Assembly: GCA_002309855.1 (NCBI GenBank)
Contig: DBYD01000029.1
Span: 10,521 to 74,520, forward strand
Direction: 5' to 3'
Length of the DNA: 64,000 nt
From: Bacteroidales bacterium UBA1195
GTDB lineage: Bacteria > Bacteroidota > Bacteroidia > Bacteroidales > WCHB1-69
Shown: positions 13,647 through 58,977 of the stretch, piece by piece
Layout: every line of letters starts with the position of its first letter
Position numbering within the stretch: position 1 is the stretch's first letter
The notes under the pieces: model-generated
Seen by the model: the letters and a program-made list of their open reading frames with translations, nothing else
What the model was told of the DNA's origin: nothing
Databases searched by the model: none
Made by a program: the position numbers and the translations under genes

Positions 13647-13649
13647 AGG

Positions 13650-14185: not shown

Positions 14186-14191
14186 GTAGCG

Positions 14192-14806: not shown

Positions 14807-14828
14807 TTTCGCGCCTTTTTACAAAAAA

Positions 14829-14927
14829 AGGGTAAGCTACTCATATCGCATCGCTCAACCATTTTACCCTTGCTGCCTTCCGACCCTGGGGGAGTTCAAC
14901 AGGAGCAGATCGTATAAGACTTACCCG
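14829..14927 (-). ncRNA. ffs: Signal recognition particle RNA (small 4.5S type)
   Basis: The minus strand contains the domain IV signature CAGGGTCGGAAGGCAGCAAGG (a GGAA tetraloop flanked by AGG / AGCA loop residues). The terminal helix is GGGTAAG...CTTACCC followed by T7. A TAnnTTTG box sits about 5 nt upstream of the predicted 5' end. Confidence 0.7.
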
Positions 14928-14931
14928 AATG

Positions 14932-14939
14932 CAAAAGTA
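14932..14939 (-). promoter_or_regulatory. Candidate -7 promoter box (TACTTTTG on the minus strand) for ffs
   Basis: TAnnTTTG match immediately upstream of the predicted SRP RNA 5' end. Confidence 0.45.
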
Positions 14940-22315: not shown

Positions 22316-22320
22316 CCGCA

Positions 22321-24765: not shown

Positions 24766-24781
24766 TTTACTGTGCTAGCAC

Positions 24782-26056: not shown

Positions 26057-26077
26057 GGTATTATTCTTTTATTTGGT

Positions 26078-26854: not shown

Positions 26855-27019
26855 AATAAGTTAGAATATTACCGCATACAAGTCAAACTGCATTCAACTT
26901 ACAAATGCAACTTTGGTTAAAAATTAATTTTTGCAAAAGTAGTAAAAAAATACTCATACGCGGATTAGTACATGACAAAAATTTAATCTAAAAAAAATAT
27001 TATATTGATATTAAAGTAG

Positions 27020-28654: not shown

Positions 28655-28674
28655 TTTATGAAAGTTTTATCCGC

Positions 28675-30180: not shown

Positions 30181-33100
30181 TTACCGTACAATGTTCATTT
30201 TCCTTACCTGTTGCCGGCCGTCGTATTCCATGCGGTAGTAGTATAGGCCGTCTGCCCATCCCTCGGTGCTGATGCTGACGGTGTTCTCACCGGCCTGCGC
30301 CTGGATGCGCCTGCGGTTGATCAGCTGCCCGTTGGCGGAGAGCACGGATATTGTCACCTCGCCACCCTGCGGTAGCGTGAACGGTATGGCGGTCATGTTG
30401 GAGGCGGGGTTGGGTATGTTCTGCCCAAGCCGCCAGTCCATACGTCTTGCAATGCGGATGCCGGTGGTGTCGGTTCCGGTGGTGTCGGTTCCGGTTGTGT
30501 CCGTTGTGTCCGGCACATTGACCTTTCCGGTGAGGGAGATGCTGTTGTCACCGGTGGCGGCATCGCAGGGGAGCAGCGCCTCCAGCCTGAAACTGAAGGT
30601 GGGGTTCTCCTTGGTTGCGAATGGCACCACGAAGGGCTGTGAGAGCTGTTGTGTCACGGAGTCGCCGGCCTTGATGTGCGTGCGCAGCGTGTCCGCGAGC
30701 AGGGCCTGCCCGTTGGCGTACATGCGCAGGACAACCCTGTCCACAGGCACGTTGCCCTTGTTCGTGACCGTGGCTTTGATCTGCAGTTGGTCATCACCGC
30801 TGTACAGTGTTATGCTGTCGATGCCGGAGACGGCCGCCAGCGCGATGTCCTGGCTTATGGATATGGATCCGCGTGCGGTGTCGTTGGTGGGGTCGTCATC
30901 AGGTGTGGCGAGGTGCCCCGTGAAGCTGTATGCACCTTCGGCGGAGAGGTCGAGCGCGGTGGTGACGGTGACGGTGTCGGAGCCGTTGCCCGGTATCGTG
31001 GTGCGGTATGGCAGCGCGAAGTTGCGGCTCGCCGCCCCGCTCACCTGCACCATGACGGTGTCGTCCACGGCTGCTGCAGCCGCTGTCTTGTTCTCCACGA
31101 CCATCCGCAGCGTCAGGTTCTGCAGGCTGCATGCGGAGAGTTTGTCAATGTCGGGGAGCAGCAGGCTTGCGGCGAGGTCGCGCCGTGCGGAGATGCGGAC
31201 GCGGTCGATGCGCTGCCCGGCGCCTCCTGCCACGCCCTCAAGCACGATGCAGAGGCACTTCGAGGAGGTGAACCTGTCAAGCTGGTATTCGTATGGCTGC
31301 CATCCCGCTGTGGCCGCTGCCGCGCAGAGCCGTCCGAGGACGGTGTATGTAGCGCCTCCGTCGGTTGTGGCTTTGACGATGAGCGAGTCACCCTGGTTCT
31401 TGCCGTTGTGGTGCGCGTACCAGAGTGTGAGCTTGGGCTGCACCGCCTGGTAAACGGCGACGGAGTTGAGGATGGCCGCGGTCCTGGCCCCGGTCTGGCT
31501 CCCGCCCTCAAGCGTCAGGCATCCGTTGCCGAATGCGGACGCGGGCGTGCCGGTCGTCGCGCATCTCCACTTGAGGCTGCCGCTGATGCACTCCTGCACC
31601 AGCTCCTGTGGCATGGCTGAGAAGTCGGCGTCGAAGGGGAGACTGACGCGGTAGGCGTTGTACTCCATGGATATGGTGTCGTTGGTGGGGTTGTGGTCGG
31701 CGGTGTCGGAGAGGGTGACGCGGATCTTATAGATGCCGCCGTTCGCCGTGTTGAGCCTCATCGGGCGGAACTTGCCGCTCTGTGCGGGGTCGAGCTTGCC
31801 CTGCCTGATGGTGGTGTCTTTGGAGAGGCTCACCGCCCCTGTGACCGTGACGCGGATCTTCAGCGGTGACTTGGCGAAATCTGCGGCGATGTTGCCGATG
31901 TTGGAGATGGTCACCTCGATGTCGGTGAAGTCACCGTGGCAGGCGACGGCTGATGTCGGGTCTGGGTTCACGAAGGCCACTGCTACAAGGTCGGCCTCCA
32001 GCTTAAGATTCCCGCTGTAGCAGCCCATGGTGGTGACGGTGTTGCGGGTTTTGCCGAGGATGTCCCTTGTGACGTTGTTGAGGCGGTTGCAGGCGAATGC
32101 GCTGTAGTCCTTCAGCTCGAGGCTTGTCGCCTGCTGCACGAACTGCGGCTGCACGGCGACGGAGTGCGCGTCCTGCCCGGTGTTGCTCCTCCAGTCCGCC
32201 AATGTGGCTATGGCCTTACCGAAGTATCCGACCATGTTCCGGGCGTGGTAGTTGTTGTAGTCGAGCACGTAGTAGCTGGATATGGACATGGGCACCTTCT
32301 CGATGTATATGGGATATGCTGTTGCACCCTCCGCCACCAGCAGGTTGTTGAGGAGGTTGAAGGGCTGCTTGCCGCTGTTGTTGTAGAGTCTGACGGCGTA
32401 GGCGTTGCCCTTGTCGCACCTCACGAGGACGCTGTTGTGGGCGATGTCCCATTCCTGGTATGGGTCGGTGAGTGTTATTCCGTATGCGAACTTGGTGCCG
32501 GTGAGTGTTATCTCGGAGTTGGAGAGCAGCCCCTTCGCGCTGGTGTTGATGTAGGTCGACAGGACGATGCCGTACACCCCTGTCGCCTCTGCGCGGACGC
32601 GGTTTGCGTCGATTGCGTCGATGTCGTTGTAGGAGTGGAACCAGAGGCCGCAGTACTCGTCGGCGCCCTTGCGCCCCGTGATGTCGTTGGCGCGGACGCT
32701 CCTGTAGTGGGCGTAGCTTTCGCTGTAGAGGCCGTATGCGGCGGCCTCCTTCAAGGTGTTGCTGTCGATGGTGAGCGATGCGGACGGCATGTTGGTTGTG
32801 GAGCCTGCCATGCACGCCATGTGGATGTTGTATGCGCCTCCCTCAATCCTGTTGCAGACAAGGCGGACATCCTGCATGAACAGGGTGCTGCCGGTGGGGT
32901 TGTTGTACCTGACGGCGGCCTCGGTCTTGACGGCGGTGATGGAGGCCTGTATGTCGCAGTTGCGGATGAGTATGTTGCGGACCATGCCTTCGAATGCAAC
33001 GCCGCACTCCGCCTTGGATGTGTTGCCAAAGGCCACCCCGTCGAAGATCCAGTGCATGGCGTTCTTGAGGGTGGCTCCGTTGGTGCCGTTGTCGAAGCGG

Positions 33101-36100
33101 ACGGTTGCTCCCTTGTCGGCGGTGATGCGGATGGTGCTGGTGGCGCTTGAGCCCGGCACGGAGTCGGCGATGGAGAGTGCGGGGTACTGTCCGGAGCGGA
33201 ACATTAGCGTTACCGCACCTCCGATGCCGCAGTGTGTCATGATGGTGTAGGCTTCGTCAAAGGAGGCGAAGTCGGGGCTGGTGCCGCCGACGGTGTATGT
33301 CCCTTTCATGGGGCTGCCGCAGATGAACTCCTGCATGCGGATGGTGTCGTTGTTGGGGTTGGGGTCTTTGTCCTGGTTGGGCTGGTACACCCATGCGATG
33401 ATGCTTATCTGTTTTCCGCCAGGGGCGTTCACGCTGCCGAGTGTTACGGTGTCGCTGCTGCCGGAGGTGAGCAGGCCGCTCCAGCTCTTCGGGGTCTGTG
33501 CGGTCCCGTTCACGCTCCAACCGATTACTGCTGACTTCAAATCATCGTCGCCGAGGTTGGTGAGGGTGACCTTGACCGGACTACTCTGCCCGCCCACAAT
33601 CTGTGTGCCCGCGAACTCGCCCAACGAGGCGTCCAGTTTGGCCAATTTGCCCGTGTAGGCACCCATTCCTGTGATCTTTTTGCGGAGCGAATCCTCCACA
33701 TCGCGGAGGATGCCCATGTTCGGCACCATGAAAAGCGTATAATCTTTCAGTTGCAGCCCTTTGGTCACATCCACGAATCCCGGGTTCGTGGAGAGACTGT
33801 GAGAATTGTCGTTTGTGGTTGATTGCAGCGTCTTAAGGTCGCTGATGATGGTGGTTCCGATGACGGCGATGTCCTTGCCCTGGTTCCAGTAGTTGTTGTA
33901 GTCTGTCCGGACATTTGGCAGCGCGTCCGCCGCAATGACAAGCGGAAACTGGTTGTTGCCGTCGCAGGCGGCCACCATGTTGCCGTAGGCCTCCACGTCA
34001 GAGGTGGCTCCCGTGATTGAGAGGTCGTGCACCCCCACGGTGTAGTTTGTGGTGTATGCGGCCTTGATGGTGTTGTAGATGCTGTTGTGGATGAACCGCG
34101 CCTTGGTGCCGCCCATCTGCACCACACGGCCGGTGCCCTGGCCGACCCGCCATCCGCCGCTCACCTTTCCAAGGATGACATTGTTGGCGATAAGGGTCTT
34201 CCCTCCGTTGAGGCTGGTGGTGTTTGAAACATTGAACACCACGCCGGTGGGGGCCGCGTCACCCATGAGGCTCATGTTGACGAAGTTGCCGTATACGCTG
34301 TCGCAGGTGGTCTGGTTCAGGGCCACGCCGAACGAGTTCTGGTTTATTTTCTTACGCACAAGGCAGGTGTTGAAGCAGAAGCTGACGCTGTCGGCATATT
34401 CGATGCCGAAAAGGCCGTCGTATGTCTCGACAATCAGGTTGCTGTCCACACGCATGCCGTGGAAGCGGCTGGTGGCGGTTCCGCGCAGACGGTTGCGGCA
34501 ACCTCCGGAGATGGTGTTGCCTATCAGGTGGAAGTTGCGCACAAGCGTGGTGATGGTGTTGTCCCCCTTGCCGATGCAGGAATTTGATCCGGCGGTTGCG
34601 GAGACCGGGGTCAGCAGGTTGCAGCGGTAGAAGGTGACATTTTCGGTCGGGCCTGCGAAGTACACCGCATGTCCGCTCCCGGTGTTGTTAATCGTGATGT
34701 AACTGAATGTCATGTTGCTGGTGCTGTCCAACTGGACCGCTCCGTTGGTTCCGCTGTAGTTGAAGGTGACACTGTCGCGGTTTTTGGCCTTGGAGGTGAT
34801 TGTCAGCCGGTATCCGTTCATGAAGCCGGTGTTGATTCTGATCGGGGTCGAGCCCAAGTTGTAGGTTCCCTTTTCAAAAGTCAGGGTGATGTCCCCGCCC
34901 GCGCCGCAGGCCTCAATGCCCTGGATGGCGTCGGCAAGGCTTTTGTACTGGCTGTTCGGGCCGACATTGTATGTGCCGGAGGAGGCCGAGCTGCAGCCGA
35001 GCGAAATCCGACGCAGCGTGTCGTCATTCACTGCCTTGTCCACCACATTGTTCGGCATCTTTATCCATACGGTCACCGTGTCGTAGGTGTTCATCCGGTG
35101 CATGTATGTGCCGAGCGTTATGGTGTCAATAAAGTCGCAGGGCAGGTTGCCGGTGTATTTTTTCGAGCCCTGGTACACGCCGTTGAGCGACCAGTGCAGT
35201 TCCGCCGACTTCAGGTTGTTCAGACCCTTGTTCTTGAAGCTCACCTGCACGGTCTGCGGGTTGGGAATGGAGACCCGTCCCGGCTTGTCAATTGAATGCA
35301 TTGCGACGGAGTTGCTGTCGAAACCGCCCGGATATTTCACGTAGAATCCGGCGTTGGCCTTGGCGTTGTTGCCGAAGGTGTCGCGTCCGATGATGTAGTA
35401 CTGAACGCTTGTGCCGAAATACTGCTGCGGGATGGTGGCCGTCCACATCGAGTCGCCCGCCGTGGCTTTCATCCTGATGGAGTCATGCTTGCTCTTGCCG
35501 CTGTATAGCGTGACGGTGTGCAGGTATGGAGTGAGGATTGGACCGTTTGTCCGTGTGGCCACCTTTGCGTTGACAACGAAGGGTCCGGTTGTGAACACCG
35601 TGTCGGCGATGTTGGAGGTGAATGCCACCACCGGCGGCTGTATGGCGTGCGCGGCGCAGAGTAGCTGCACATCGTCCACATACCATCCGGCTGCAATGTA
35701 GGAACCCATATAGCTTCCTTTCCTGATTATGAATTTGAAGCGTACTTCGGAGTAGCCAGCGTAGTTGCTCATGTCGAAAATCTCCTCCTTCCACCATCCG
35801 CTGGCAGGCTGGGCTAAGGTGTCGTTGGCCTTCCATTCGGTGTAGGAGCTATGGTCGAAGGCGAGGTTGGCCTTGTAGCCGGTGAACTTGCCCTTGTATG
35901 CATCGTTGGGTATCGGCCTCCATTTGTAGTTGACACCCAATCCCTTCTCCTGATACATGACCTGGCAGATGTCACTGGGCAGCACTTTGCATATATGGCT
36001 GAATTTAAGAATCACATATTCATATTGCTGGCAGTCGAAATAGGGAGTGACCAGTTCCACCGTATCACCGGCGGAATAGGGGACGTAGCCGTGCGCCGCG

Positions 36101-36303
36101 TATGATGCGGAGACAACCAGCCCCTTTTCCGTGCGCCAGCTGGGTGCCATTGTGGAAAAGGCCGGCTGCACCGACCAGCCCTGCGGGGTGTTCTTGCCGA
36201 AGGTCTCGTTGCAGACGTAGGTGCCTTGTGCCTGCGCAGCCATGATGGCGGTTGCGAGCATCATCGGCAAAACGGCTTTTCTGAATATGTCTAAAATGTT
36301 CAT
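30181..36303 (-). CDS. Giant T9SS cargo protein, paralog A (2040 aa from the ATG at 36303). Modules: choice-of-anchor-J/MAM-like N-domain, CARDB-like Ig modules, two beta-helix regions, a second MAM-like domain, type-A CTD.
   Basis: Signal peptide MNILDIFRKAVLPMMLATAIMAAQAQG. Beta-helix rungs of about 22-25 aa. CARDB-like LTNLGDDDLKSAVIGWSVNG. C-terminus GQNIPNPASNMTAIPF...GLYYYRMEYDGRQQVRKMNIVR. The track ORF start at 36330 is a TTG extension. Confidence 0.9.
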   Translation of the reverse strand: MNILDIFRKAVLPMMLATAIMAAQAQGTYVCNETFGKNTPQGWSVQPAFSTMAPSWRTEKGLVVSASYAAHGYVPYSAGDTVELVTPYFDCQQYEYVILKFSHICKVLPSDICQVMYQEKGLGVNYKWRPIPNDAYKGKFTGYKANLAFDHSSYTEWKANDTLAQPASGWWKEEIFDMSNYAGYSEVRFKFIIRKGSYMGSYIAAGWYVDDVQLLCAAHAIQPPVVAFTSNIADTVFTTGPFVVNAKVATRTNGPILTPYLHTVTLYSGKSKHDSIRMKATAGDSMWTATIPQQYFGTSVQYYIIGRDTFGNNAKANAGFYVKYPGGFDSNSVAMHSIDKPGRVSIPNPQTVQVSFKNKGLNNLKSAELHWSLNGVYQGSKKYTGNLPCDFIDTITLGTYMHRMNTYDTVTVWIKMPNNVVDKAVNDDTLRRISLGCSSASSGTYNVGPNSQYKSLADAIQGIEACGAGGDITLTFEKGTYNLGSTPIRINTGFMNGYRLTITSKAKNRDSVTFNYSGTNGAVQLDSTSNMTFSYITINNTGSGHAVYFAGPTENVTFYRCNLLTPVSATAGSNSCIGKGDNTITTLVRNFHLIGNTISGGCRNRLRGTATSRFHGMRVDSNLIVETYDGLFGIEYADSVSFCFNTCLVRKKINQNSFGVALNQTTCDSVYGNFVNMSLMGDAAPTGVVFNVSNTTSLNGGKTLIANNVILGKVSGGWRVGQGTGRVVQMGGTKARFIHNSIYNTIKAAYTTNYTVGVHDLSITGATSDVEAYGNMVAACDGNNQFPLVIAADALPNVRTDYNNYWNQGKDIAVIGTTIISDLKTLQSTTNDNSHSLSTNPGFVDVTKGLQLKDYTLFMVPNMGILRDVEDSLRKKITGMGAYTGKLAKLDASLGEFAGTQIVGGQSSPVKVTLTNLGDDDLKSAVIGWSVNGTAQTPKSWSGLLTSGSSDTVTLGSVNAPGGKQISIIAWVYQPNQDKDPNPNNDTIRMQEFICGSPMKGTYTVGGTSPDFASFDEAYTIMTHCGIGGAVTLMFRSGQYPALSIADSVPGSSATSTIRITADKGATVRFDNGTNGATLKNAMHWIFDGVAFGNTSKAECGVAFEGMVRNILIRNCDIQASITAVKTEAAVRYNNPTGSTLFMQDVRLVCNRIEGGAYNIHMACMAGSTTNMPSASLTIDSNTLKEAAAYGLYSESYAHYRSVRANDITGRKGADEYCGLWFHSYNDIDAIDANRVRAEATGVYGIVLSTYINTSAKGLLSNSEITLTGTKFAYGITLTDPYQEWDIAHNSVLVRCDKGNAYAVRLYNNSGKQPFNLLNNLLVAEGATAYPIYIEKVPMSISSYYVLDYNNYHARNMVGYFGKAIATLADWRSNTGQDAHSVAVQPQFVQQATSLELKDYSAFACNRLNNVTRDILGKTRNTVTTMGCYSGNLKLEADLVAVAFVNPDPTSAVACHGDFTDIEVTISNIGNIAADFAKSPLKIRVTVTGAVSLSKDTTIRQGKLDPAQSGKFRPMRLNTANGGIYKIRVTLSDTADHNPTNDTISMEYNAYRVSLPFDADFSAMPQELVQECISGSLKWRCATTGTPASAFGNGCLTLEGGSQTGARTAAILNSVAVYQAVQPKLTLWYAHHNGKNQGDSLIVKATTDGGATYTVLGRLCAAAATAGWQPYEYQLDRFTSSKCLCIVLEGVAGGAGQRIDRVRISARRDLAASLLLPDIDKLSACSLQNLTLRMVVENKTAAAAAVDDTVMVQVSGAASRNFALPYRTTIPGNGSDTVTVTTALDLSAEGAYSFTGHLATPDDDPTNDTARGSISISQDIALAAVSGIDSITLYSGDDQLQIKATVTNKGNVPVDRVVLRMYANGQALLADTLRTHIKAGDSVTQQLSQPFVVPFATKENPTFSFRLEALLPCDAATGDNSISLTGKVNVPDTTDTTGTDTTGTDTTGIRIARRMDWRLGQNIPNPASNMTAIPFTLPQGGEVTISVLSANGQLINRRRIQAQAGENTVSISTEGWADGLYYYRMEYDGRQQVRKMNIVR
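30461..30514 (-). repeat. 15-bp tandem repeat (about 3.5 copies) encoding the DTT(D/G)T linker immediately before the CTD of paralog A
   Basis: CCGGTGGTGTCGGTT x2, then the degenerate CCGGTTGTGTCCGTT. It translates on the minus strand to PDTTDTTGTDTTGTDTTG. Paralog B has a shorter variant at 36720-36764. Confidence 0.85.
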
Positions 36304-36346
36304 AATGATAATTTTAAAGATTAATCCCAAATTTAAAACGAATTTG

Positions 36347-36354
36347 CAAATATA
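36347..36354 (-). promoter_or_regulatory. Candidate -7 promoter box (TATATTTG on the minus strand) of paralog A
   Basis: TAnnTTTG match 44 nt upstream of the ATG. The identical sequence context GCAAATATA recurs upstream of B and C. Confidence 0.5.
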
Positions 36355-36394
36355 CTAAAAAAAAAAAGACGGAATGAAAACCCCGTCTTTTTTA
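36355..36394 (-). terminator. Candidate rho-independent terminator of paralog B
   Basis: On the minus strand the stem AGACGG / CCGTCT is followed by a T12 run, located between the B stop and the A promoter. Confidence 0.5.
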
Positions 36395-36439
36395 TGTCAT
36401 ATATCATTTTATTGGCAACGCATACCGTAGGGCTGCGTT

Positions 36440-39400
36440 TTACCGTACAATGTTCATTTTCCTGACCTGTTGCCGGCCGTTGTATTCCATGCGGTAGTAG
36501 TATAGGCCGTCGGCCCATCCCTCGGTGCTGATGCTGACGGTGTTCTCGCCAGCCTGCGCCTGGATGCGCCTGCGGTGAACCAGCTGCCCGTTGGCGGAGA
36601 GCACGGATATTGTCACCTCGCCACCCTGCGGTAGCGTGAACGGTATGGCGGTCATGTTGGAGGCGGGGTTGGGTATGTTCTGCCCAAGCCGCCAGTCCAT
36701 ACGTTTTGCAATGCGGATGCCGGTGGTGTCAACATTGTTGGTGTCGGTTCCGGTGGTGTCCGGCACGTTGACCTTTCCGGTGAGGGCTATGCTGTTGTCA
36801 CCGGTGGCGGCGTCGCATGGGAGCAGCGCCTCCAGCCTGAAGCCGAAGGTGGGGTTCTCCTTGGTTGCGGATGGCACCACGAAGGGCTGTGAGAGCTGTT
36901 GTGTCACGGAGTCGCCGGCCTTGATGTGCGTGCGCAGTGTGTCCGCGAGCAGGGCCTGCCCGTTGGCGTACATGCGCAGGACCACCCTGTCCACCGGTAC
37001 GGTGCCTTTGTTTTTGACCGTGGCTTTGATCTGCAGTTGGTCATTACCGCTGTACAGTGTCGAGCTGTCGATGCCGCTGACAGCCGCCAGCGCGATGTTC
37101 TGGTTTATGGTGATGGCGCCGCGTGCGGTGTCGTTGGTGGGGTCGTCGTCGATAGTGTGCAGGACGGCCTCAAACTTGTGGGTCCCCTCTGCGGAGAGGT
37201 CGAGCGAGTCAGTTACAAGCAGGGTGTCGGAGGCGTTGCCCGGCAGGAATCCCTGGCACAGCCGCCTGAACAGCTGGTTCGAGGCGCCGCTTACGTTCAC
37301 GCTGAGATAGCAGCTTACGGTAGCCTCGGAGGGGATGAGGTTTTTGAGAACCACCCTGACCGGGAGGTTCTGCAGGCTGCAGGCTGAGAGCTTGTCCAAA
37401 TCGGGGAGCAGCAGCTGGATGGAGATGTCGTTGCGGCCCGATATCAGGATGCGGTCGATCTGCTGTTCGGCGCCTCCCGCGACGGTCTCCATCACGATGC
37501 AGAGGCATTGTGCGTTGCTGAATTTGTCCAACGGGTATTCGTAGAGCTTCCATCCTGCGGTTGCCGCGGCGGCGCAGAGCCGTCCGAGGACGGTGTAGGT
37601 GGCCCCGCCATCGGTTGTGGCCTTTATGATGAGCGAGTCACCCTGGTTATTGCCGTTGTGGTGCGCGTACCAGAGGCTCAGCTTCGGTTCGGTGGTGTTC
37701 TGTATGTTGATGGAATTGAGGATGATGTTGGTGCGGTCGCCGGTGTGCCCCCTGCCATCAAAGAGCAGGCATCCCTTGCCGAAGGCGGGCTGCAGGGAAC
37801 CGGATGAGGCCACCTTCCAGAGGCTGCCGCCCTTGCGGCACTCCTGCAGCAGCTCCTGCGGCATGGCGGAGAGGTATGTGTCGAAGGGGAGGTACACACG
37901 GTAGGTGTTGTAGTCCATGGAGATGGTGTCGTTGGCCGGGTTGTGGTCTGCGGTGTCGGAGAGTATGACCCTGATGTGTTGGATGGCTGAAATGGTGCTG
38001 ATCCGGAGCAGTCGGAACCTGCCGCTCTGTGCGGGGTCGAGCTTGCCCTGCCGGATGATGGTGTCCTTTAAGATGGAGTTAAGAGGGATGCCGGTGACCT
38101 CAATCCTCACCTTCAGCGGTGACTTGGCGAAATCCGCCGCGATGTTGCCGATGTTGGAGATGGTCACCTCGATGTCGGTGAAGTCACCGTGGCAGGCGAC
38201 GGCTGATGTCGGGTCTGGGTTCACGAAGGCCACTGCTGCGAGGTCGGCCTCCAGCTTAAGGTTCCCGCTGTAGCAGCCCATGGTGGTGACGGTGTTGCGC
38301 GCCTTGCCGAGGATGTCCCTTGTGACGTTGTTGAGGCGGTTGCAGGCGAAGGCACTGTAGTCCTTAAGTTCGAGGCTTGTGGCCTGCTGCGCGAACTGCG
38401 GCTGCACGGCCACGGAGTGCGCGTCCTGCCCAGTGTTGCTCCTCCAGTCCGCCAATGTGGCTATGGCCTTGCCGAAGTATCCCACCATGTTCTGGGCGAA
38501 GTAGTTGTTGTAGTCGAGCACATAGTAGCTGGATATGGACATGGGCACCTTCTCAATGTATATGGGATATGCGGTGGCACCCTCCGCCACCAGCAGGTTG
38601 TTGAGGAGGTTGAAGGGCTGCTTGCCGCTGTTGTTGTAGAGCCGGACGGCGTAGGCGTTGCCCTTGTCACACCTCACGAGGACGCTGTTGTGTGCGATGT
38701 CCCACTCCTGGTATGGGTCGGTGAGTGTGATGCCGTATGCGAACTTGGTGCCGGTGAGGGTTATCTCGGAGTTGGAGAGCAGCCCCTTCGCGCTGGTGTT
38801 TATTGATGTCGAGAGGACGATGCCGTACACCCCTGTCGCCTCGGCGCGGACGCGGTTTGCGTCAAGGGCGTCGATGTCGTTGTAGGAGTGGAACCAGAGG
38901 CCGCAGTACTCGTCGGCGCCCTTGCGCCCGGTCACGTCGTTGGCGCGGACGCTCTTGTAGTGGGCGTAGCTTTCGCTGTAGAGGCCGTATGCGGCGGCCT
39001 CCTTCATTATGTTGCTGTCGATGGTGAGCGATGCGGACGGCATGTTGGTTGTGGAGCCTGCCATGCACGCCATGTGGATGTTGTATGCGCCGCCCTCAAT
39101 CCTGTTGCCGATGAGGCGGACCTCCTGCATGAACAGGGTGCTGCCGGTGGGGTTGTTGTACCTGACTGCGGCTTCTGTCTTGACAGCGGTGTTGGAGGCC
39201 TGTATGTCGCAGTTGCGGATGAGAATGTTGCGGACCATCCCCTCGAAGGCAACGCCGCAATCGGCCTTGGATGTGTTGCCGAAGGCGACCCCGTCGAAGA
39301 TCCAGTGCATGGCGTTCTTGAGTGTCGCTCCGTTGGTGCCGTTGTCGAAACGGACGGTTGCACCCTTGTCGGCGGTGATGCGGATTGTGCTGGCTGCGCT

Positions 39401-42400
39401 TGAACCCGGCACGGAGTCGGCGATGGAGAGGGCGGAATACTGCCCTGCGCGGAAGACGAGCGTGACCGCTCCTCCGATGCCGCAGTGCGTCATGATGGTG
39501 TAGGCTTCGTCAAAGGAGGCGAAGTCGGGGCTGGTTCCGCCGACGGTGTAGGAGCCCTTCATGGGGCTGCCGCAGATGAACTCCTGCATCCGGATGGTGT
39601 CGTTGTTTGGGTTGGGGTCCTTGTCCTGGTTGGGCTGGTACACCCATGCGATGATGCTTATCTGCTTGCCGCCCGGGGCGTTCACGCTGCCGAGTGTGAC
39701 TGTGTCGCTGCTGCCGGAGGTGAGCAGCCCGCTCCAGCTCTTCGGGGTCTGTGCGGTCCCGTTCACGCTCCATCCGATTACTGCTGACTTCAGGTCATCG
39801 TCGCCGAGGTTGGTGAGCGTCACCTTGACGGGGCTGCTCTGCCCGCCCACGAGCTGTGTGCCAGCGAACTCGCCCAACGAGGCGTCCAGTTTGCCCAGCT
39901 TGCCCGCGTAGGCGCCGATAGCGGTAATTTTCTTTCTGGCAGAATCCTCAAAGTCGTTTGTGATTCCGGGATTCGGCACCATGAAAAGGGTGTAGTCCTT
40001 CAACTGCAGCCCCTTGGTCGGGTCAGCAAATCCGGGATCGGCCGAGATGCTGCCTTTGTCATTGATGAGCGGCTGCAGGGCGGCAAGCGAGGTGACTGCG
40101 TTGCCGTTGTAATAGGCTATGGTCTTGCCGCCGTTTGCGAAATAAAAGTTGTTGTGTTCGGAAACAACCTTTCCGGCGGCTGCGGTGGCCGCGGCCACAT
40201 TCAGCGTGTGCTGGTTCTTGTCATCAAAGGCGATGAGCTGGTTGCCCACCATGTGTATGTCGCTGGTGTCATTGATGCCCATCACATAAACCGTCTTGTT
40301 GTTGTTCCCGCTGGTAGGTGCGGCGGAGGTGCGCCCGTTGTAGACGCTGTTGAAGAAGACATCGGCCTGCGCCTTTGAGACCGTGAGCAGGTTGCTTGAC
40401 CCGGCGTTGTTACGCACGTATGAGCTGTTGCTGTAGCCGAGGATGACGTTGTTGGCGATGAGTATGCGCCCCGACTTGCCGCTCCCAGTCGGTTTGCCGG
40501 ATGTGCCGGAGACGGAAATTCCCGGCCCGCCGTAGGTGGTGCCCTGGTTCAGGAATGAGATGAAGTTGCCGCATACGCTGTCGCCCGTGATGACGGAGAG
40601 CTGGATGCCGGGCGACCAGTAGGAGCTGGTCTTGTCCTTCACCCAGACGCGGTTGCGGTTGCAGGTGACACTGTCCGCGCGATAGACCATGATACCTGCG
40701 GCGGTGTTGTCGGTGATGGTGTTGTCGTTGAAGACCAGCCGGTGCAGCCGGTGTGTTGTGGCCATGGTGATGACATTGCGGCAGCCGTTGTCGATGTGGT
40801 TGCCGATGAAGCGCAGGTCGCGCACGAAGGCGTTAAGGCCGTTGTTGCCGTTGTCGTTCGCCTGTGCGGTGGTGGCGTTCAGGGTGGTGGATCCGATGGT
40901 CATCTGGTATCCGCTGGTGGCGAAGCCGGTGCCGTTGGTCCGTCTCAGCACGCAGTGGTAGAAGGTCACATTGTCGATCGGGCCGTTAAGGCAGACGGTG
41001 TTGCTGTTTGATGTGCTGCTGTTATGTATGGTCAGGTAACTGAATGTGACATTCTCGGTGTTGTTTAGGGTGATCATCCCTGGGGCGGTAATGGAGGCCT
41101 TGTAGCTGATTGTCACGCTGTCGCGGTTCTTGGATTTGGAGGTGAAGGTCAGGTGGTGGCCGTTCATGAAGGCGGTGTTAAGCCGCAGTACCGAATCGAT
41201 TATATATGTGCCGTTCTCAAATTCTATGGTGATGTCGCCGCCCGCGCCGCAGGCGTAGATTCCATCCATCGCCTCCTTCAGCGTCTTGTACTGGCTGTTC
41301 GGGCCGACGGCGAAGGTGCCGGATGAGGCTTTGGCGCAGCCGAGCGAAATCCGCTGCAGCGTATCGTCATTGACCGCCTTGTCCGCCACATTGTTTGGCA
41401 TCTTTATCCATACGGTCACCGTGTCGTAGTCGTTCACGCGGTGGATATAGCTTCCGAGCGTTATTGTGTCGATGAAGTCGCAGGGCAGGTTGCCGGTATA
41501 TTTTTTCGAGCCCTGGTACACGCCGTTGAGCGACCAGTGCAGCTCCGCCGATTTCAAATTGTTCAGCCCCTTGTTCTTGAAGCTCACCTGCACGCTCTGC
41601 GGGTTGGTGATCGAGACCCGCCCCGGCTTGTCAATCGAATACATGGCGACGGAGTTGCTGTCGAAGCCGCCAGGGTATTTCACGTAGAATCCGGCGTTGG
41701 CCTTGGCATTGTTGCCGAAGGTGTCGCGTCCGATGATATAGTACTGGACGCTTGTGCCGAAATACTGCTGCGGGATGGTGGCCGTCCACATCGAGTCGCC
41801 CGCCGTGGCCTTCATCTTGATTGAGTCATGCTTGCTTTTGCCGCTGTAAAGCGTGACTGTGTGCAGGTATGGCGTAAGGATGTGCCCGTTGGTTCTTGTG
41901 GCAACCTTTGCGTTTACAACGATGGGTCCCGTAGTGAACATCGTGTCGGCGATGTTGGAGGTGAATGCCACCACCGGCGGCTGTATGGCGTGCGCGGCGC
42001 AGAGCAGCTGCACATCGTCCACGTACCATCCGGCTGCGATGAATGAGCCCGGGTAGCTTCCCTTCCTGATCACGAATTTGAAGCGCACTTCCGAGTAGCC
42101 CGCATAGTTGCTCATGTCGAAAATCTCCTCCTTCCACCATCCGCTGGCAGGCTGTGCGAAGGTGTCGTTAGCCTTCCATTCAGTGTAGGAGCCATGGTCG
42201 AAGGCGAGGTTGGCCTTGTAGCCGGTGAACTTGCCCTTGTATGCATCGTTGGGTATCGGCCTCCATTTGTAGTTGACACCCAATCCCTTCTCCTGATACA
42301 TGATCTGGCAGATGTCGCTGGGAAGCACTTTGCATATATGGCTGAATTTAAGAATCACATATTCATATTGCTGGCAGTCGAAGTAGGGAGTTATGAGTTC

Positions 42401-42646
42401 CGCCGTGTCGCCGCTTGCGTATGGGACGTAGCCGTGCGCCGCGTATGATGCGGAGACCACCAGCCCCTTTTCAGTGCGCCAAGTGGGAGCCTGGGCGGAA
42501 TAGGCCGGCTGCACCGACCAGCCCTGCGGGGTGTTCTTGCCGAAGGTCTCGTTGCAGACGTAGGTGCCCTGTGCCTGCGCAGTCATTATGGCTGTGGTGA
42601 GCATCATCGGCAAAACGGCTTTTCTGAATATGTCTAAAATGTTCAT
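36440..42646 (-). CDS. Giant T9SS cargo protein, paralog B (2068 aa from the ATG at 42646), a tandem duplicate of A with a different first beta-helix cassette
   Basis: It has the same signal peptide and module order as A, and C-terminus ...GLYYYRMEYNGRQQVRKMNIVR. The track ORF extension to 42763 runs through the promoter and is rejected. Confidence 0.9.
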   Translation of the reverse strand: MNILDIFRKAVLPMMLTTAIMTAQAQGTYVCNETFGKNTPQGWSVQPAYSAQAPTWRTEKGLVVSASYAAHGYVPYASGDTAELITPYFDCQQYEYVILKFSHICKVLPSDICQIMYQEKGLGVNYKWRPIPNDAYKGKFTGYKANLAFDHGSYTEWKANDTFAQPASGWWKEEIFDMSNYAGYSEVRFKFVIRKGSYPGSFIAAGWYVDDVQLLCAAHAIQPPVVAFTSNIADTMFTTGPIVVNAKVATRTNGHILTPYLHTVTLYSGKSKHDSIKMKATAGDSMWTATIPQQYFGTSVQYYIIGRDTFGNNAKANAGFYVKYPGGFDSNSVAMYSIDKPGRVSITNPQSVQVSFKNKGLNNLKSAELHWSLNGVYQGSKKYTGNLPCDFIDTITLGSYIHRVNDYDTVTVWIKMPNNVADKAVNDDTLQRISLGCAKASSGTFAVGPNSQYKTLKEAMDGIYACGAGGDITIEFENGTYIIDSVLRLNTAFMNGHHLTFTSKSKNRDSVTISYKASITAPGMITLNNTENVTFSYLTIHNSSTSNSNTVCLNGPIDNVTFYHCVLRRTNGTGFATSGYQMTIGSTTLNATTAQANDNGNNGLNAFVRDLRFIGNHIDNGCRNVITMATTHRLHRLVFNDNTITDNTAAGIMVYRADSVTCNRNRVWVKDKTSSYWSPGIQLSVITGDSVCGNFISFLNQGTTYGGPGISVSGTSGKPTGSGKSGRILIANNVILGYSNSSYVRNNAGSSNLLTVSKAQADVFFNSVYNGRTSAAPTSGNNNKTVYVMGINDTSDIHMVGNQLIAFDDKNQHTLNVAAATAAAGKVVSEHNNFYFANGGKTIAYYNGNAVTSLAALQPLINDKGSISADPGFADPTKGLQLKDYTLFMVPNPGITNDFEDSARKKITAIGAYAGKLGKLDASLGEFAGTQLVGGQSSPVKVTLTNLGDDDLKSAVIGWSVNGTAQTPKSWSGLLTSGSSDTVTLGSVNAPGGKQISIIAWVYQPNQDKDPNPNNDTIRMQEFICGSPMKGSYTVGGTSPDFASFDEAYTIMTHCGIGGAVTLVFRAGQYSALSIADSVPGSSAASTIRITADKGATVRFDNGTNGATLKNAMHWIFDGVAFGNTSKADCGVAFEGMVRNILIRNCDIQASNTAVKTEAAVRYNNPTGSTLFMQEVRLIGNRIEGGAYNIHMACMAGSTTNMPSASLTIDSNIMKEAAAYGLYSESYAHYKSVRANDVTGRKGADEYCGLWFHSYNDIDALDANRVRAEATGVYGIVLSTSINTSAKGLLSNSEITLTGTKFAYGITLTDPYQEWDIAHNSVLVRCDKGNAYAVRLYNNSGKQPFNLLNNLLVAEGATAYPIYIEKVPMSISSYYVLDYNNYFAQNMVGYFGKAIATLADWRSNTGQDAHSVAVQPQFAQQATSLELKDYSAFACNRLNNVTRDILGKARNTVTTMGCYSGNLKLEADLAAVAFVNPDPTSAVACHGDFTDIEVTISNIGNIAADFAKSPLKVRIEVTGIPLNSILKDTIIRQGKLDPAQSGRFRLLRISTISAIQHIRVILSDTADHNPANDTISMDYNTYRVYLPFDTYLSAMPQELLQECRKGGSLWKVASSGSLQPAFGKGCLLFDGRGHTGDRTNIILNSINIQNTTEPKLSLWYAHHNGNNQGDSLIIKATTDGGATYTVLGRLCAAAATAGWKLYEYPLDKFSNAQCLCIVMETVAGGAEQQIDRILISGRNDISIQLLLPDLDKLSACSLQNLPVRVVLKNLIPSEATVSCYLSVNVSGASNQLFRRLCQGFLPGNASDTLLVTDSLDLSAEGTHKFEAVLHTIDDDPTNDTARGAITINQNIALAAVSGIDSSTLYSGNDQLQIKATVKNKGTVPVDRVVLRMYANGQALLADTLRTHIKAGDSVTQQLSQPFVVPSATKENPTFGFRLEALLPCDAATGDNSIALTGKVNVPDTTGTDTNNVDTTGIRIAKRMDWRLGQNIPNPASNMTAIPFTLPQGGEVTISVLSANGQLVHRRRIQAQAGENTVSISTEGWADGLYYYRMEYNGRQQVRKMNIVR

Positions 42647-42689
42647 AATGATAATTTTAAATATTAATCCCAAATTTAAAACGAATTTG

Positions 42690-42697
42690 CAAATATA
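42690..42697 (-). promoter_or_regulatory. Candidate -7 promoter box (TATATTTG on the minus strand) of paralog B
   Basis: A duplicate of the paralog A promoter context. Confidence 0.5.
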
Positions 42698-42815
42698 CGA
42701 AAAAAAAAGACTGGATGAAAACTCCGCCTTTTTTATATCTTTTTCGCTGACATTTTGGTACAATAAAAGCTTTTATGGCACCGTTTTTGGCAGGTGCATC
42801 TGAAAAACTGTTACG

Positions 42816-43271
42816 ATGAAACATTTTTTTCTCCTTCTTTGTATGGCGGCGGCAGGCATCCATGCAGCAGCCCAACAGCCGTTGAACGGAAGCGCTGACA
42901 ATATTGTGGGCAACTATATCGGACGGCAGAACGGCGACTGTTTCAAGGTGCGTGTCACGCGGCTGGCGGACGGCACCTATAGGGCGCAGGTGTATTGGGT
43001 GGAACGGGATTGTGACGAATCAGGCCGGAAAATCCTTGACAGCAAAAATCCGGACAGAAGCCTCCGGCAGACACCCTATGACCAGATTGTGCTTTTCAAT
43101 GGATTGAAATACAATGCAAAGGACAAATGCTGGGACGGCACCAAAATTTATGACCCACAGCGCGGCATCCGCGCGAACATGCGTGCCGATTTCACCCCGA
43201 AGGGGAACCTGCGCATCAGAGGGTCGCTGTTAGGCATCAGCGAAACAATCTATTGGCAGCGTATACCGTAG
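42816..43271 (+). CDS. DUF2147-domain secreted protein
   Basis: Signal peptide MKHFFLLLCMAAAGIHAAAQ. Characteristic segments DSKNPD..LR, DGTKIYDPQRG and LRIRGSLLGISETIYWQR. Confidence 0.85.
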   Translation: MKHFFLLLCMAAAGIHAAAQQPLNGSADNIVGNYIGRQNGDCFKVRVTRLADGTYRAQVYWVERDCDESGRKILDSKNPDRSLRQTPYDQIVLFNGLKYNAKDKCWDGTKIYDPQRGIRANMRADFTPKGNLRIRGSLLGISETIYWQRIP

Positions 43272-43287
43272 GGTTGCATGACAAATC

Positions 43288-43317
43288 TGTAGAGACGCAA
43301 AATTTTGCGTCTCTACA
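43288..43317. repeat. Perfect 30-nt REP-like palindrome TGTAGAGACGCAAAA|TTTTGCGTCTCTACA, probably also a bidirectional terminator
   Basis: Read directly from the sequence. It lies between the convergent DUF2147 and LRR genes and overlaps the LRR stop codon (43313-43315). Confidence 0.85.
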
Positions 43318-58823: not shown

Positions 58824-58977
58824 CAAAAAAAATTAAATGCTTTTTCCTTTGGTTCAGAAATACAGGACATTTTTTTTTACCCACATTCCGCAATCCGTAT
58901 TGCAAAATGTTGTATTTTTGCAAATCCGTTTTTACGGAAACGTTCATTCATTTTTTCACAACCCTAAAATAAAAAAA

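What the first reader, a model, noticed from the sequence alone, without database searches (positions are those of the whole stretch)
30181..42763. Tandem duplicates A and B are mosaics of near-identical and divergent blocks (gene-conversion signature)
Aligned by eye, A and B alternate between blocks that are nearly identical at the nucleotide level and blocks that are only distantly similar. Approximate boundaries (A <-> B):
- 30181-30900 <-> 36440-37150: near-identical (CTD plus the last CARDB modules).
- 30900-31860 <-> 37150-38110: divergent (MAM-like domain plus a CARDB module).
- 31860-33790 <-> 38110-40040: near-identical over about 1.9 kb (second beta-helix plus flanking CARDB modules).
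- 33790-34985 <-> 40040-41335: unrelated cassette.
- 34985-36400 <-> 41335-42745: near-identical (N-terminal head, signal peptide, 5' UTR and promoter).

Uniform divergence after a single duplication would not give sharp alternation like this. Segmental gene conversion or cassette replacement would.
Basis: seen in the sequence. Interest (0 to 1): 0.75.

Follow-up and report, generated by a model that had tools for sequence, protein, structure and literature searches.

The report
Mosaic tandem surface-protein genes shaped by recombination
Two neighbouring 6-kb genes for secreted surface proteins of an uncultured rumen Bacteroidales bacterium really are patchworks of about 92%-identical and strongly divergent blocks; this pattern comes from recombination between gene copies, a well-known way for bacterial surface proteins to evolve.

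Summary
"Near-identical" means about 91-93 %, and the longest exact run is 124 nt. The "unrelated cassette" is the same module type in both genes, a predicted beta-helix at about 35-44 % amino-acid identity.

Selection alone cannot explain the pattern, because synonymous divergence differs by block:
- dS is 0.14-0.34 in the conserved blocks, 0.68 in the jelly-roll block and saturated in the cassette.
- B's cassette is closest to paralog D (73-81 % nt), while B's flanks are A-like (max-chi2 719 against a permutation maximum of 25).

It is not an assembly artefact. Zero-mismatch read contigs from the source sample span every junction, and four other rumen samples and two independent assemblies carry the same four divergent blocks.

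Across strains, A and B form separate clades in the head, cassette and jelly-roll blocks but not in the middle and tail blocks. In one sample about 1 kb of the middle block sits at double depth as a single sequence. This points to ongoing A/B gene conversion bounded by divergent domains.

A and B are T9SS cargo proteins. This is a new member of a known kind, of modest interest.

The parts
30181..36303 (-). Gene A, a 2040-aa T9SS cargo protein. Domain order: signal peptide, jelly-roll head, Ig-like, CARDB-like, beta-helix 1, CARDB, beta-helix 2, CARDB/Ig, jelly roll, Ig, CARDB, Thr/Asp-rich linker, type A CTD.
   Evidence: ORF. Por_Secre_tail scores 33 bits (cut-off 27) and CARDB 29 bits. TIGR04183 scores 34.8 bits (cut-off 23). 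AF2 models have pLDDT 81 and 86.
36440..42646 (-). Gene B, 2068 aa, the tandem paralog of A with the same architecture.
   Evidence: A and B are 76.7 % aa identical overall.
36304..36398 (-). Duplicated upstream region of A: a terminator-like hairpin with a T-run, and a Bacteroidetes-type -7 motif TATATTTG (36354-36347) 43 nt before the ATG. The B counterpart is 42647-42739, with its motif at 42697-42690.
   Evidence: Alignment and motif search. Homology starts at 36398 in A and 42739 in B.
35101..36303 (-). Head block (B: 41444-42646). It is 91.7 % nt identical, with dS 0.34 and dN/dS 0.09. A and B form separate clades across strains, and the differences are clustered.
   Evidence: (dispersion 1.97, p = 0.006).
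33831..34760 (-). A-type cassette, the core of beta-helix module 1 (aa ~441-880), with transition zones 34761-35100 and 33681-33830. It is 53 % nt identical to B's cassette and weakly closest to the modules of paralog C.
   Evidence: Orthologs are 96-97 % identical. A 0-mismatch read contig covers 33490-35083.
40019..41116 (-). B-type cassette, the D-like tract in B (B aa 511-876). It is 73-81 % nt and 66-84 % aa identical to D, and 78-90 % nt identical to a gene of another lineage (P0006 / L027).
   Evidence: Self-BLAST matches 40008-41157 to 57361-58510 at 75.4 %. See, max-chi2. A 0-mismatch read contig covers 39743-41426.
31931..33680 (-). Middle conserved block: CARDB plus beta-helix module 2 (B: 38184-39933). 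It is 93 % nt identical, with dS 0.26 and dN/dS 0.07. There are no A/B clades across strains. This is the likely zone of ongoing gene conversion.
   Evidence: X6 contig 32462-33417 at 16.6x against 7.6-8.3x for the unique blocks.
30881..31930 (-). Second divergent block: CARDB/Ig, jelly roll ('MAM-like') and Ig (B: 37131-38183). It is 72 % nt identical, with dS 0.68 and dN/dS 0.43. It is paralog-specific across strains. A's version is 99.7 % identical between the window and L024.
   Evidence: 0-mismatch read contigs cover 30703-31802 and 36953-38049.
30181..30880 (-). Tail block: last CARDB, Thr/Asp-rich linker and T9SS CTD (B: 36440-37130). It is 93 % nt identical with the lowest dS (0.14). 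There are no A/B clades.
57361..58510 (-). The beta-helix module of paralog D that is the closest in-window relative of B's cassette.
53444..58811 (-). Paralog D, split by a +1 frameshift in a G6 run at about 56641-56646. Its 3' half is 84.5 % nt identical to C (45378-48668 matches 53454-56745) and its 5' half is only 37-39 % aa identical to C, so C and D form a second mosaic pair.
   Evidence: The frameshift is confirmed by read contigs in X1-X4.
45368..52657 (-). Paralog C, 2429 aa, with three beta-helix modules, CARDB and the CTD.
60167..64000 (-). Paralog E, whose N-terminus is cut by the window end. It has CARDB and the CTD.

Best explanation
A and B are tandem paralogous genes for giant cell-surface proteins exported by the type IX secretion system (T9SS) in an uncultured rumen Bacteroidales species. 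They belong to a local family of at least five such genes (A-E).

The mosaic is the footprint of homologous recombination acting domain by domain.

1. The first beta-helix domain (the 'cassette') belongs to two old lineages. B's version shares ancestry with paralog D and with a gene of another lineage, not with A. One of the two genes therefore obtained its cassette, or its flanks, by non-reciprocal exchange within the family.

2. The jelly-roll/Ig block is a second block that stays paralog-specific. Its synonymous divergence is intermediate, so it came from an older or outside allele. It is also exchanged between strains.

3. The scaffold and export parts are kept alike by repeated A/B gene conversion. 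This is shown for the middle block (beta-helix 2) and the tail (last CARDB plus the CTD). The head has not been homogenised since the strains split. Conversion tracts end where homology runs out at the divergent domains.

Shown here: the mosaic, block-specific synonymous divergence, discordant segment trees, stability in several samples, and loss of paralog identity in the middle and tail blocks.

Inferred: RecA-type gene conversion as the mechanism; selection keeping the two putative ligand-binding domains different while the scaffold is homogenised; and surface adhesin or glycan-binding function.
For: The mosaic is real.

Synonymous divergence differs by block. dS is 0.34 [0.26-0.44] in the head, 0.26 [0.21-0.34] in the middle block, 0.14 [0.08-0.21] in the tail, 0.68 [0.54-0.86] in the jelly-roll block and 1.12 in the cassette. 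The 4-fold-site differences are 0.22, 0.20, 0.10, 0.40 and 0.49.

The segment trees are discordant:
- B/D identity is 73-81 % nt only inside B aa ~529-869 and about 50-60 % outside.
- In the max-chi2 test, B matches D at 308 of 394 informative sites inside aa 511-876 and matches A at 1388 of 1584 sites outside. Chi2 is 719 against a permutation maximum of 24.8.
- P0006 is 87-90 % nt identical to B in the cassette, about 73 % in the head and about 57-65 % downstream.
- The C/D pair has the same kind of mosaic.

In the jelly-roll block C and D are 84-96 % identical while A and B are 63-74 %, so that block is not intrinsically fast-evolving.

Strain comparison with L022-L026:
- Orthologs are 95-97 % identical and paralogs 91, 59 and 70 % in the head, cassette and jelly-roll blocks.
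- The middle block shows no A/B structure: Aw-Bw 93.5, Aw-A24 94.1, A24-Bw 95.9, A24-B25p 96.5. The tail behaves likewise.
- Fixed paralog differences are few in the middle block.

In sample X6 one 956-nt contig (32462-33417) sits at 16.6x against 7.6-8.3x for the four unique blocks, and nothing else lies on B's equivalent stretch.

Between strains, the A jelly-roll block is 99.7 % identical between the window and L024 while the rest of A is 94-96 % identical.

The mosaic is not an artefact.

All four breakpoints fall at predicted domain borders: aa ~441-511, ~846-884, ~1458 and ~1801.
Against: The orthologous loci are short-read metagenome assemblies, and in 92-94 % identical repeats an assembler can mix the two copies.
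- L022, L023 and L026 show A = B at 100 % over the whole 3' 3.4 kb. These scaffolds contain N gaps, and each carries its own variant on both copies, so this looks like a collapse.
- The 'no clades in the middle block' result rests on L024 and L025 and could be partly affected in the same way.

In the window itself the converted blocks are still 6-8 % apart, so no conversion there is recent.

Quartet site patterns in the head show almost only orthology-type sites: 539 O, 7 C and 6 X over alignment columns 100-3000, which include the cassette. There is therefore no post-split conversion in the head.

Differences in the middle block are Poisson-distributed, so no discrete short tracts are visible in this genome.

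The direction and order of events cannot be resolved (cassette import versus flank homogenisation). No long reads could be found.
Confidence: 0.75

Rival explanations
1. One recent tandem duplication was followed by one or two one-off block replacements: the cassette from a D- or P0006-like donor, and the jelly-roll block from another allele. There has been no ongoing A/B gene conversion, and the conserved blocks simply date the duplication.
For: The head block has clean A and B clades and almost only orthology-type informative sites. dS of the head and middle block overlap (0.34 and 0.26). Differences in the middle block are evenly spread. The duplicated unit includes the promoter and the terminator-like hairpin, as a simple duplication would.
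Against: Tail dS (0.14 [0.08-0.21]) is significantly lower than head dS (0.34 [0.26-0.44]). The middle and tail blocks have no paralog clades across strains. In X6 about 1 kb of the middle block is a single sequence at double depth while the unique blocks are at single depth. Three of the four boundaries are gradual, which fits many tracts with different ends.
Confidence: 0.17
2. There has been no recombination. A single duplication was followed by different selective constraint, with fast or positively selected evolution in the two divergent blocks.
For: dN/dS is higher in the divergent blocks (0.43-0.48) than in the conserved ones (0.07-0.09).
Against: Synonymous and 4-fold-site divergence also differ 2- to 5-fold between blocks, with non-overlapping intervals. 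B's cassette groups with D and P0006, not with A. The same jelly-roll block is well conserved between C and D.
Confidence: 0.03
3. The mosaic is an assembly artefact: chimeric joining or collapse of repeats in a metagenome assembly.
For: Related scaffolds L022, L023 and L026 show suspicious 100 % A = B identity and N gaps. Two related assemblies break inside the repeats: L002 at 30629, and L025 at the contig end within B.
Against: 0-mismatch read-derived contigs from X1 and X2 cross both cassette junctions of A and B and cover both jelly-roll blocks at equal depth. The longest exact A/B run is 124 nt. L024 links the B jelly-roll block, B tail, the whole of A and the histidine kinase colinearly. 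L025 links C, B's cassette and B's jelly-roll block. X6, X9, X10 and X12 hold all four divergent blocks.
Confidence: 0.02
4. This is a programmed, high-frequency cassette-switching (antigenic or phase variation) system. Frameshifted D or other family members would serve as silent donors for the expressed genes, possibly helped by the neighbouring Rpn-like nuclease.
For: D carries a frameshift in a G6 run and holds the nearest relative of B's cassette. A PD-(D/E)XK_2 (Rpn/YhgA-type) gene lies between D and E.
Against: The cassettes are stable: they are 96-97 % identical between strains and hosts, always in the same gene. The B and D cassettes are only 75 % identical, so D is not a recent donor. 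A and B both have full ORFs and promoters. The source-sample contigs show no alternative junctions, although contigs drop rare variants.
Confidence: 0.03

Closest known systems
Porphyromonas gingivalis surface virulence factors, including the Kgp gingipain adhesin domains: domain rearrangement and allelic exchange (Dashper et al. 2017, PMC5266723)
   Same: Both concern Bacteroidota surface proteins. Variation is modular: whole domains occur as discrete variants that form a mosaic unrelated to the strain phylogeny. The paper attributes this to homologous recombination and gene conversion.
   Different: The proteins here are unrelated to those: a beta-helix / CARDB / jelly-roll architecture with no protease domain. 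The organism is a rumen commensal known only from metagenomes. The exchange here is between tandem paralogs, with strain-level evidence of homogenised scaffold blocks.
Concerted evolution of bacterial paralogs by gene conversion, for example Brucella omp2a/omp2b (PMC7050475, from the listing) and, from my own knowledge, Salmonella tufA/tufB and Helicobacter pylori babA/babB
   Same: In both cases non-reciprocal homologous recombination homogenises parts of duplicated genes, leaving blocks of high identity next to blocks that keep paralog identity.
   Different: Here the tracts are bounded by whole divergent domains in 6-kb multidomain genes. The divergent domains have their own affinities to third paralogs. 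No experimental demonstration exists.
Cassette-based antigenic variation systems (Neisseria pilE/pilS and Borrelia vlsE from my own knowledge; Mycoplasma genitalium MgPa/MgPar, PMC2169797 from the listing)
   Same: In both cases segments are replaced from related donor sequences elsewhere in the genome.
   Different: Those systems use promoterless silent cassettes and switch at high frequency within a clone. Here both genes are complete and the cassettes are stable across strains and hosts. The resemblance is in outcome, not in dynamics.
Gene conversion among modules of assembly-line polyketide synthases (GRINS paper, PMC8256042, from the listing)
   Same: Both involve large modular genes in which some module segments are homogenised by gene conversion while others diverge.
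   Different: The protein class is different, and no GRINS-like repeat element was looked for or seen here.

Membership tests
T9SS type A cargo protein | C-terminal sorting domain (Pfam PF18962 / TIGR04183) scoring above the curated cut-off | tested here: met
   For A, PF18962 scores 33 bits and for B 37.5 bits (cut-off 27). TIGR04183 scores 34.8 and 35.6 bits (cut-off 23). AF2 predicts a beta-sandwich at aa 1970-2038.
T9SS type A cargo protein | N-terminal Sec signal peptide | tested here: met
   The sequence reads MNILDIFRKAVLPMMLATAIMAAQAQG, a hydrophobic core followed by AQA. AF2 shows a lone low-confidence helix at aa 3-25. No dedicated signal-peptide predictor was available.
T9SS type A cargo protein | T9SS machinery genes in the same genome, and actual secretion and anchoring | not testable with these tools
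   Only 64 kb of the genome is available. At least nine other ORFs in the window carry Por_Secre_tail or CHU_C domains, which suggests an active T9SS.
Right-handed parallel beta-helix domain (cassette and module 2) | Match to Pfam Beta_helix / NosD, or a beta-helix fold | tested here: inconclusive
   Module 2 scores 16 bits on PF13229 (cut-off 25.9), and the cassettes have no hit. Database homologues carry PF13229 and PF05048. The AF2 model of aa 441-880 is a long run of short strands behind a capping helix, with pLDDT mostly 80-95. Foldseek on the whole three-part model returned only Ig and jelly-roll hits, and the beta-helix part was not searched on its own.
   Pfam gives no hit at E <= 1. 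AF2 predicts a jelly-roll-like sandwich at aa ~1540-1715. Foldseek lists Eph ectodomains and alpha-2-macroglobulins, but TM-scores are about 0.2 because the query is multidomain. 'MAM-like fold' is plausible; membership is not shown.
CARDB domain | Pfam PF07705 above cut-off | tested here: met
   A scores 29.1 bits and B 28.4 bits (cut-off 22.7).
Inter-paralog gene conversion / concerted evolution | Different segments of the same gene pair support different trees | tested here: met
   In the cassette the grouping is (B,D) and downstream it is (A,B),(C,D). Max-chi2 is 719 against a permutation maximum of 25.
Inter-paralog gene conversion / concerted evolution | Synonymous divergence differs between segments | tested here: met
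   dS runs from 0.14 to more than 1.1 with non-overlapping bootstrap intervals.
Inter-paralog gene conversion / concerted evolution | In converted tracts, paralogs within a genome are as close as or closer than orthologs between genomes | tested here: inconclusive
   In the middle block Aw-Bw is 93.5 % and Aw-A24 is 94.1 %, and A24 is closer to Bw and B25p (95.9-96.5 %). X6 shows one double-depth sequence over 956 nt. However, the ortholog assemblies are short-read, and three of them look collapsed.
Inter-paralog gene conversion / concerted evolution | Direct observation of non-reciprocal transfer | not testable with these tools
   This needs a cultured strain or phased long reads. No PacBio or Nanopore runs could be listed.
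Programmed cassette antigenic variation (pilE/pilS type) | Silent promoterless donor cassettes and high-frequency switching within a population | tested here: not met
   A and B each have a promoter-like motif and a full ORF. The cassettes are fixed in the same gene in every strain and sample examined. The source-sample contigs show no alternative joints.

The most novel reading that the evidence does not exclude
The A-E cluster may work as a standing 'domain library'. Complete and frameshifted family members (D has a G-run frameshift) would exchange whole beta-helix and jelly-roll ligand-binding domains by homologous recombination at conserved domain-border motifs. The export and scaffold parts would be kept uniform, and the Rpn-like PD-(D/E)XK nuclease encoded inside the cluster might promote this. 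That would be a slow, population-level counterpart of pilE/pilS-type variation in gut Bacteroidales, tuned to changing glycan, host or phage targets.
Probability: 0.07. Interest if true: 0.7.

Novelty: new member of a known kind. Interest (0 to 1): 0.33.

Why it matters
The locus is a clean, multi-sample example of how very large T9SS surface proteins of uncultured rumen Bacteroidales diversify. Whole putative binding domains are swapped or kept distinct, while the scaffold, export signal and promoter are homogenised.

There are two practical consequences.
- Short-read assemblies of this species break or collapse at this locus (L002, L025, L022, L023, L026), so gene catalogues will miscount and mis-join these genes.
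- The two divergent domains, beta-helix 1 and the jelly roll, are the obvious places to look for differences in ligand specificity between the paralogs.

The finding does not reveal a new mechanism.

Tried and rejected
- An exact look-up of protein A found nothing on record.
- Pfam at E <= 1 on six segments and NCBIfam on the whole proteins gave no domain names for the head, the cassettes or the jelly-roll block.
I therefore could not test directly whether the 100 % A = B identity in L022, L023 and L026 is real. I treat it as a probable assembly collapse, because these scaffolds hold N gaps and each carries its own variant on both copies. I did not use it as evidence.
- A database search with B's cassette alone returned only eight fragments and added little.
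- Foldseek on the two multidomain AF2 models gave generic Ig, jelly-roll and macroglobulin hits with low TM-scores. Single domains were not searched separately.
- Laying reads from X5, X8, X11 and X13 on A alone could not separate the two copies in the middle block, because B's copy also maps there.
- Quartet C-type sites in the head (7) do not exceed X-type sites (6), so I dropped the idea of post-split conversion in the head.
- Rfam and tRNA scans found nothing inside the A/B region.
- I considered a DGR or invertible-promoter explanation but did not pursue it. No reverse transcriptase or recombinase turned up among the ORFs scanned, though not every small ORF was scanned.

Full report
**What is there**

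The minus strand of the window holds a cluster of very large genes that end in a type IX secretion (T9SS) C-terminal sorting domain:
- A: 30181-36303
- B: 36440-42646
- C: 45368-52657
- D: 53444-58811, frameshifted
- E: 60167 to beyond the window end

The listed ORFs of A and B start at upstream TTG codons. The shared start MNILDIFRKAVLPMML..., followed by AQA, places the real ATGs at 36303 and 42646.

The rest of the window is ordinary chromosome: IF-2, MetRS, topoisomerase I, Sua5, RNase P RNA, small SRP RNA and tRNA-Phe, plus further T9SS cargo genes.

The closest public relatives are rumen Bacteroidales MAGs. They include RUG11939, which is 91-97 % identical over the syntenic flank.

**Checking the observation**

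BLASTN of A against B gives two colinear matches, separated by a stretch with no nucleotide match:
- 88.4 % over 1644 nt (36398-34755 against 42739-41101)
- 86.3 % over 3600 nt (33766-30181 against 40019-36440)

A 100-nt sliding window on a global alignment shows five alternating zones.

So the alternation and the coordinates are right to about 100 nt. Three details need correcting:
- "Near-identical" means 91-93 %, and the longest exact shared run is 124 nt.
- Only the boundary at about 31930 is sharp. The other three decay over 200-400 nt.
- The cassette is not unrelated sequence (see the section on recombination).

**Is it real DNA or an assembly artefact?**

Runs X1-X4, one bovine gut sample, hold 71-88 % of the k-mers of this region.

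- Their read-derived contigs match the window with zero differences across both junctions of A's cassette (33490-35083), both junctions of B's cassette (39743-41426) and both jelly-roll blocks (30703-31802 and 36953-38049).
- All of these sit at similar depth, about 22-35x.
- Four samples from other studies (X6 sheep; X9, X10, X12) contain all four divergent blocks at 96-98 % identity. In X6 their depths are equal.
- Independent assemblies reproduce the linkage. L024 runs from B's jelly-roll block through B's tail, the whole of A and the histidine kinase. L025 runs from C through B's head, cassette, middle and jelly-roll blocks.

I could not find long reads. With a maximum exact repeat of 124 nt and these independent confirmations, mis-joining is very unlikely.

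**Is it just different constraint?**

No. Nei-Gojobori estimates with codon bootstrap:

| Block | dS [95 % interval] | 4-fold-site difference |
|---|---|---|
| Head | 0.34 [0.26-0.44] | 0.22 |
| Middle | 0.26 [0.21-0.34] | 0.20 |
| Tail | 0.14 [0.08-0.21] | 0.10 |
| Jelly-roll | 0.68 [0.54-0.86] | 0.40 |
| Cassette | 1.12 (saturated) | 0.49 |

dN/dS is 0.07-0.09 in the head and middle blocks and 0.43-0.48 in the divergent blocks.

Selection therefore differs between blocks, but so does age. In paralogs C and D the same jelly-roll block is 84-96 % identical, so it is not an intrinsically fast region.

**Evidence for recombination among paralogs**

A codon alignment of all five paralogs gives these results:
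- B and D are 73-81 % nt (66-84 % aa) identical only within B aa ~529-869. This is exactly where A/B identity drops to 50-61 %.
- Outside that stretch B/D identity falls to about 50-60 %.
- Self-BLAST finds the same tract: 40008-41157 against 57361-58510, 75.4 %.

A two-breakpoint maximum chi-square test places the D-like tract at B aa 511-876, window ~40019-41116.
- Inside, 308 of 394 informative sites match D.
- Outside, 1388 of 1584 match A.
- Chi2 is 719, against a maximum of 24.8 in 100 permutations.

A's cassette is weakly closest to C's modules. The cassettes of A and B hit each other at E 1e-81, so they are old lineages of one module type.

C and D form a second mosaic pair:
- 84.5 % nt identity over the 3' 3.3 kb
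- 37-39 % aa identity in the 5' half
- a CTD that is no closer in C/D than in C/E

A protein from another lineage, P0006 (Logan contig L027), shows the same kind of discordance with B: 87-90 % nt identity in the cassette, about 73 % in the head and about 57-65 % downstream.

Modules in this family clearly have separate histories.

**Evidence from related strains**

Syntenic loci L022, L023, L024, L025 and L026 are 93-96 % identical to the window. Block-wise distance matrices separate two kinds of block.

- In the head, cassette and jelly-roll blocks, orthologs cluster. They are 95-97 % identical, while paralogs are 91, 59 and 70 %. The A/B differences there predate strain divergence and are maintained.
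- In the middle block there is no A/B structure: Aw-Bw 93.5, Aw-A24 94.1, A24-Bw 95.9, A24-B25p 96.5. The tail behaves the same way.

Further observations point the same way:
- Most Aw/Bw differences in the middle block are not fixed paralog differences.
- The 4-fold-site divergence between paralogs equals that between orthologs.
- In X6, a single 956-nt contig covers 32462-33417 at 16.6x. The four unique blocks sit at 7.6-8.3x, and nothing lies on B's equivalent stretch. In that strain the two copies appear identical there, whereas they differ by about 6 % in the window.
- A's jelly-roll block is 99.7 % identical between the window and L024, while the rest of A is 94-96 % identical. Blocks are therefore also exchanged between strains.

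Caveats:
- L022, L023 and L026 show A = B at 100 % over the entire 3' 3.4 kb. These scaffolds contain N gaps, and each carries its own variant on both copies. I regard this as a probable assembler collapse and do not count it.
- The same weakness could blur L024 and L025 in the 93 % identical middle block.
- In the head, quartet patterns are almost purely orthologous (539 O, 7 C, 6 X over columns that also include the cassette).
- Differences in the head and tail are spatially clustered (p = 0.006 and 0.02-0.04). Those in the middle block are not.

**What the proteins are**

Pfam and NCBIfam recognise only CARDB and the T9SS type A sorting domain. Database homologues are annotated as right-handed beta-helix or NosD proteins.

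AlphaFold2 models built with family alignments give the following layout.

A aa 1-900, pLDDT 81:
- signal helix
- jelly-roll head, aa 28-217
- Ig-like domain, aa 225-322
- CARDB-like domain, aa 333-436
- long beta-helix, aa ~441-880

A aa 1441-2040, pLDDT 86:
- Ig/CARDB domain
- jelly roll, aa ~1540-1715
- Ig domain, aa ~1725-1800
- CARDB domain, aa ~1805-1930
- disordered Thr/Asp-rich linker
- CTD sandwich

Foldseek hits (Eph ectodomains, meprin, alpha-2-macroglobulins, adhesins) fit strings of jelly-roll and Ig domains. TM-scores are low because the queries are multidomain.

The four breakpoints lie at aa ~441-511, ~846-884, ~1458 and ~1801, that is at predicted domain borders. The divergent blocks are thus whole domains: beta-helix 1, and jelly roll plus Ig.

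Each gene has its own upstream terminator-like hairpin and a Bacteroidetes-type -7 motif (TATATTTG) 43 nt before the ATG. Both lie inside the duplicated unit.

**Most likely mechanism**

A and B are long-lived tandem paralogs. Homologous recombination has repeatedly copied sequence between them (gene conversion), at least in the middle and tail blocks.
- The tracts die out at two domains that are too divergent to pair, or whose difference is kept by selection.
- At least one exchange with another family member, or with another lineage, gave B and the D/P0006 lineage a common beta-helix 1.
- Strain-to-strain allelic exchange adds further patchiness.

Shown here are the mosaic, the block-specific ages, the discordant trees, and the loss of paralog identity in some blocks.

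Inferred are the recombination pathway, the order of events, and the idea that the two divergent domains carry different ligand specificities on a common, homogenised scaffold.

**Comparison with known systems and novelty**

Mosaic surface-protein genes produced by gene conversion or domain exchange are well documented. Examples:
- domain variants of P. gingivalis surface proteins, including Kgp (PMC5266723)
- Brucella omp2a/omp2b, M. genitalium MgPa and PKS modules (listing)

The locus does not meet the defining features of programmed cassette switching. Both genes are complete, and the cassettes are stable across strains and hosts.

It is therefore a new member of a known kind. It is a tidy and well-supported example in an uncultured rumen lineage, and it is a practical warning for short-read assembly of this locus. 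It is not a new mechanism.

Noticed in passing
window 56641-56646 (paralog D, 53444-58811, minus strand): D is split by a +1 frameshift in a G6 run (AAGGGGGGTGAAC). Removing one G gives a 1789-aa ORF, and C has AGGGGACTG at the same place. Read-derived contigs from four runs of the source sample carry the G6 form with no differences, so this is not a consensus error. D may be a pseudogene or a phase-variable gene.
   Followed up: partly
window 58837-60027 (+): A PD-(D/E)XK_2 family gene (Rpn/YhgA-type recombination-promoting nuclease or transposase-like; Pfam E 2.7e-41) sits between paralogs D and E, on the opposite strand. Its position inside a recombining gene cluster is suggestive, but it was not tested.
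   Followed up: no
window 22317-28676: A 6.3-kb stretch, low in G+C over part of its length (0.39-0.48 at 24-28 kb), is absent from the syntenic loci L002 (RUG11939) and L024. It carries further T9SS cargo genes (IgGFc_binding + PKD + CHU_C; BspA-type LRR + Por_Secre_tail) and two ORFs with no family. L022, L023 and L026 have an AraC-type gene there instead. This is a strain-variable slot downstream of the histidine kinase.
   Followed up: partly
window 43043-45295: The slot between C and the DUF2147 gene varies between strains. The window has a BspA-type LRR T9SS gene (43313-45295), L022 and L023 have a nitroreductase, and L025 has neither. In X1 and X2 the bin 43043-43500 shows about 1000x contig depth and several loose ends at 43284-43320. 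This suggests a junction with a repeated or highly abundant sequence.
   Followed up: no
L022 12628-16204 and 18876-22452; the same in L023 and L026: In three scaffolds from one study, A and B are 100 % identical over the whole 3' 3.4 kb, including an A-type jelly-roll block, although the scaffolds differ from each other there. L023 has a 10-N gap in B, and L023 and L026 share a 1-nt deletion that splits B. This is probably repeat collapse by the assembler, but a real 3.4-kb conversion is not excluded.
   Followed up: partly
L022 ~21500-21800 (alignment columns 5400-5700, matching window ~31200-30900): A third allele of the distal jelly-roll/Ig sub-block is 73-81 % identical to A's version and 75-82 % to B's. 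More than two types of this domain therefore circulate in the population.
   Followed up: no
window 45368-52657 (paralog C): C contains three successive beta-helix modules (aa ~35-600, ~616-1270 and ~1261-1832) that match each other and the single modules of D. The family also grows by internal module duplication.
   Followed up: partly
L027 6798-7520: Downstream of the P0006 gene (A/B-type head with a B-type cassette) lies the start of a D-like gene (…AQTTIRIGNSPKADLPFASFDSLLTEIGAGK…). The tandem arrangement of an A/B-type gene and a C/D-type gene therefore recurs in another lineage.
   Followed up: no
window 13648-14933 (-): tRNA-Phe (13648-13722), RNase P RNA class A (13829-14181) and the Bacteroidales small SRP RNA (14826-14933) are clustered here. 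These are ordinary housekeeping RNAs.
   Followed up: yes
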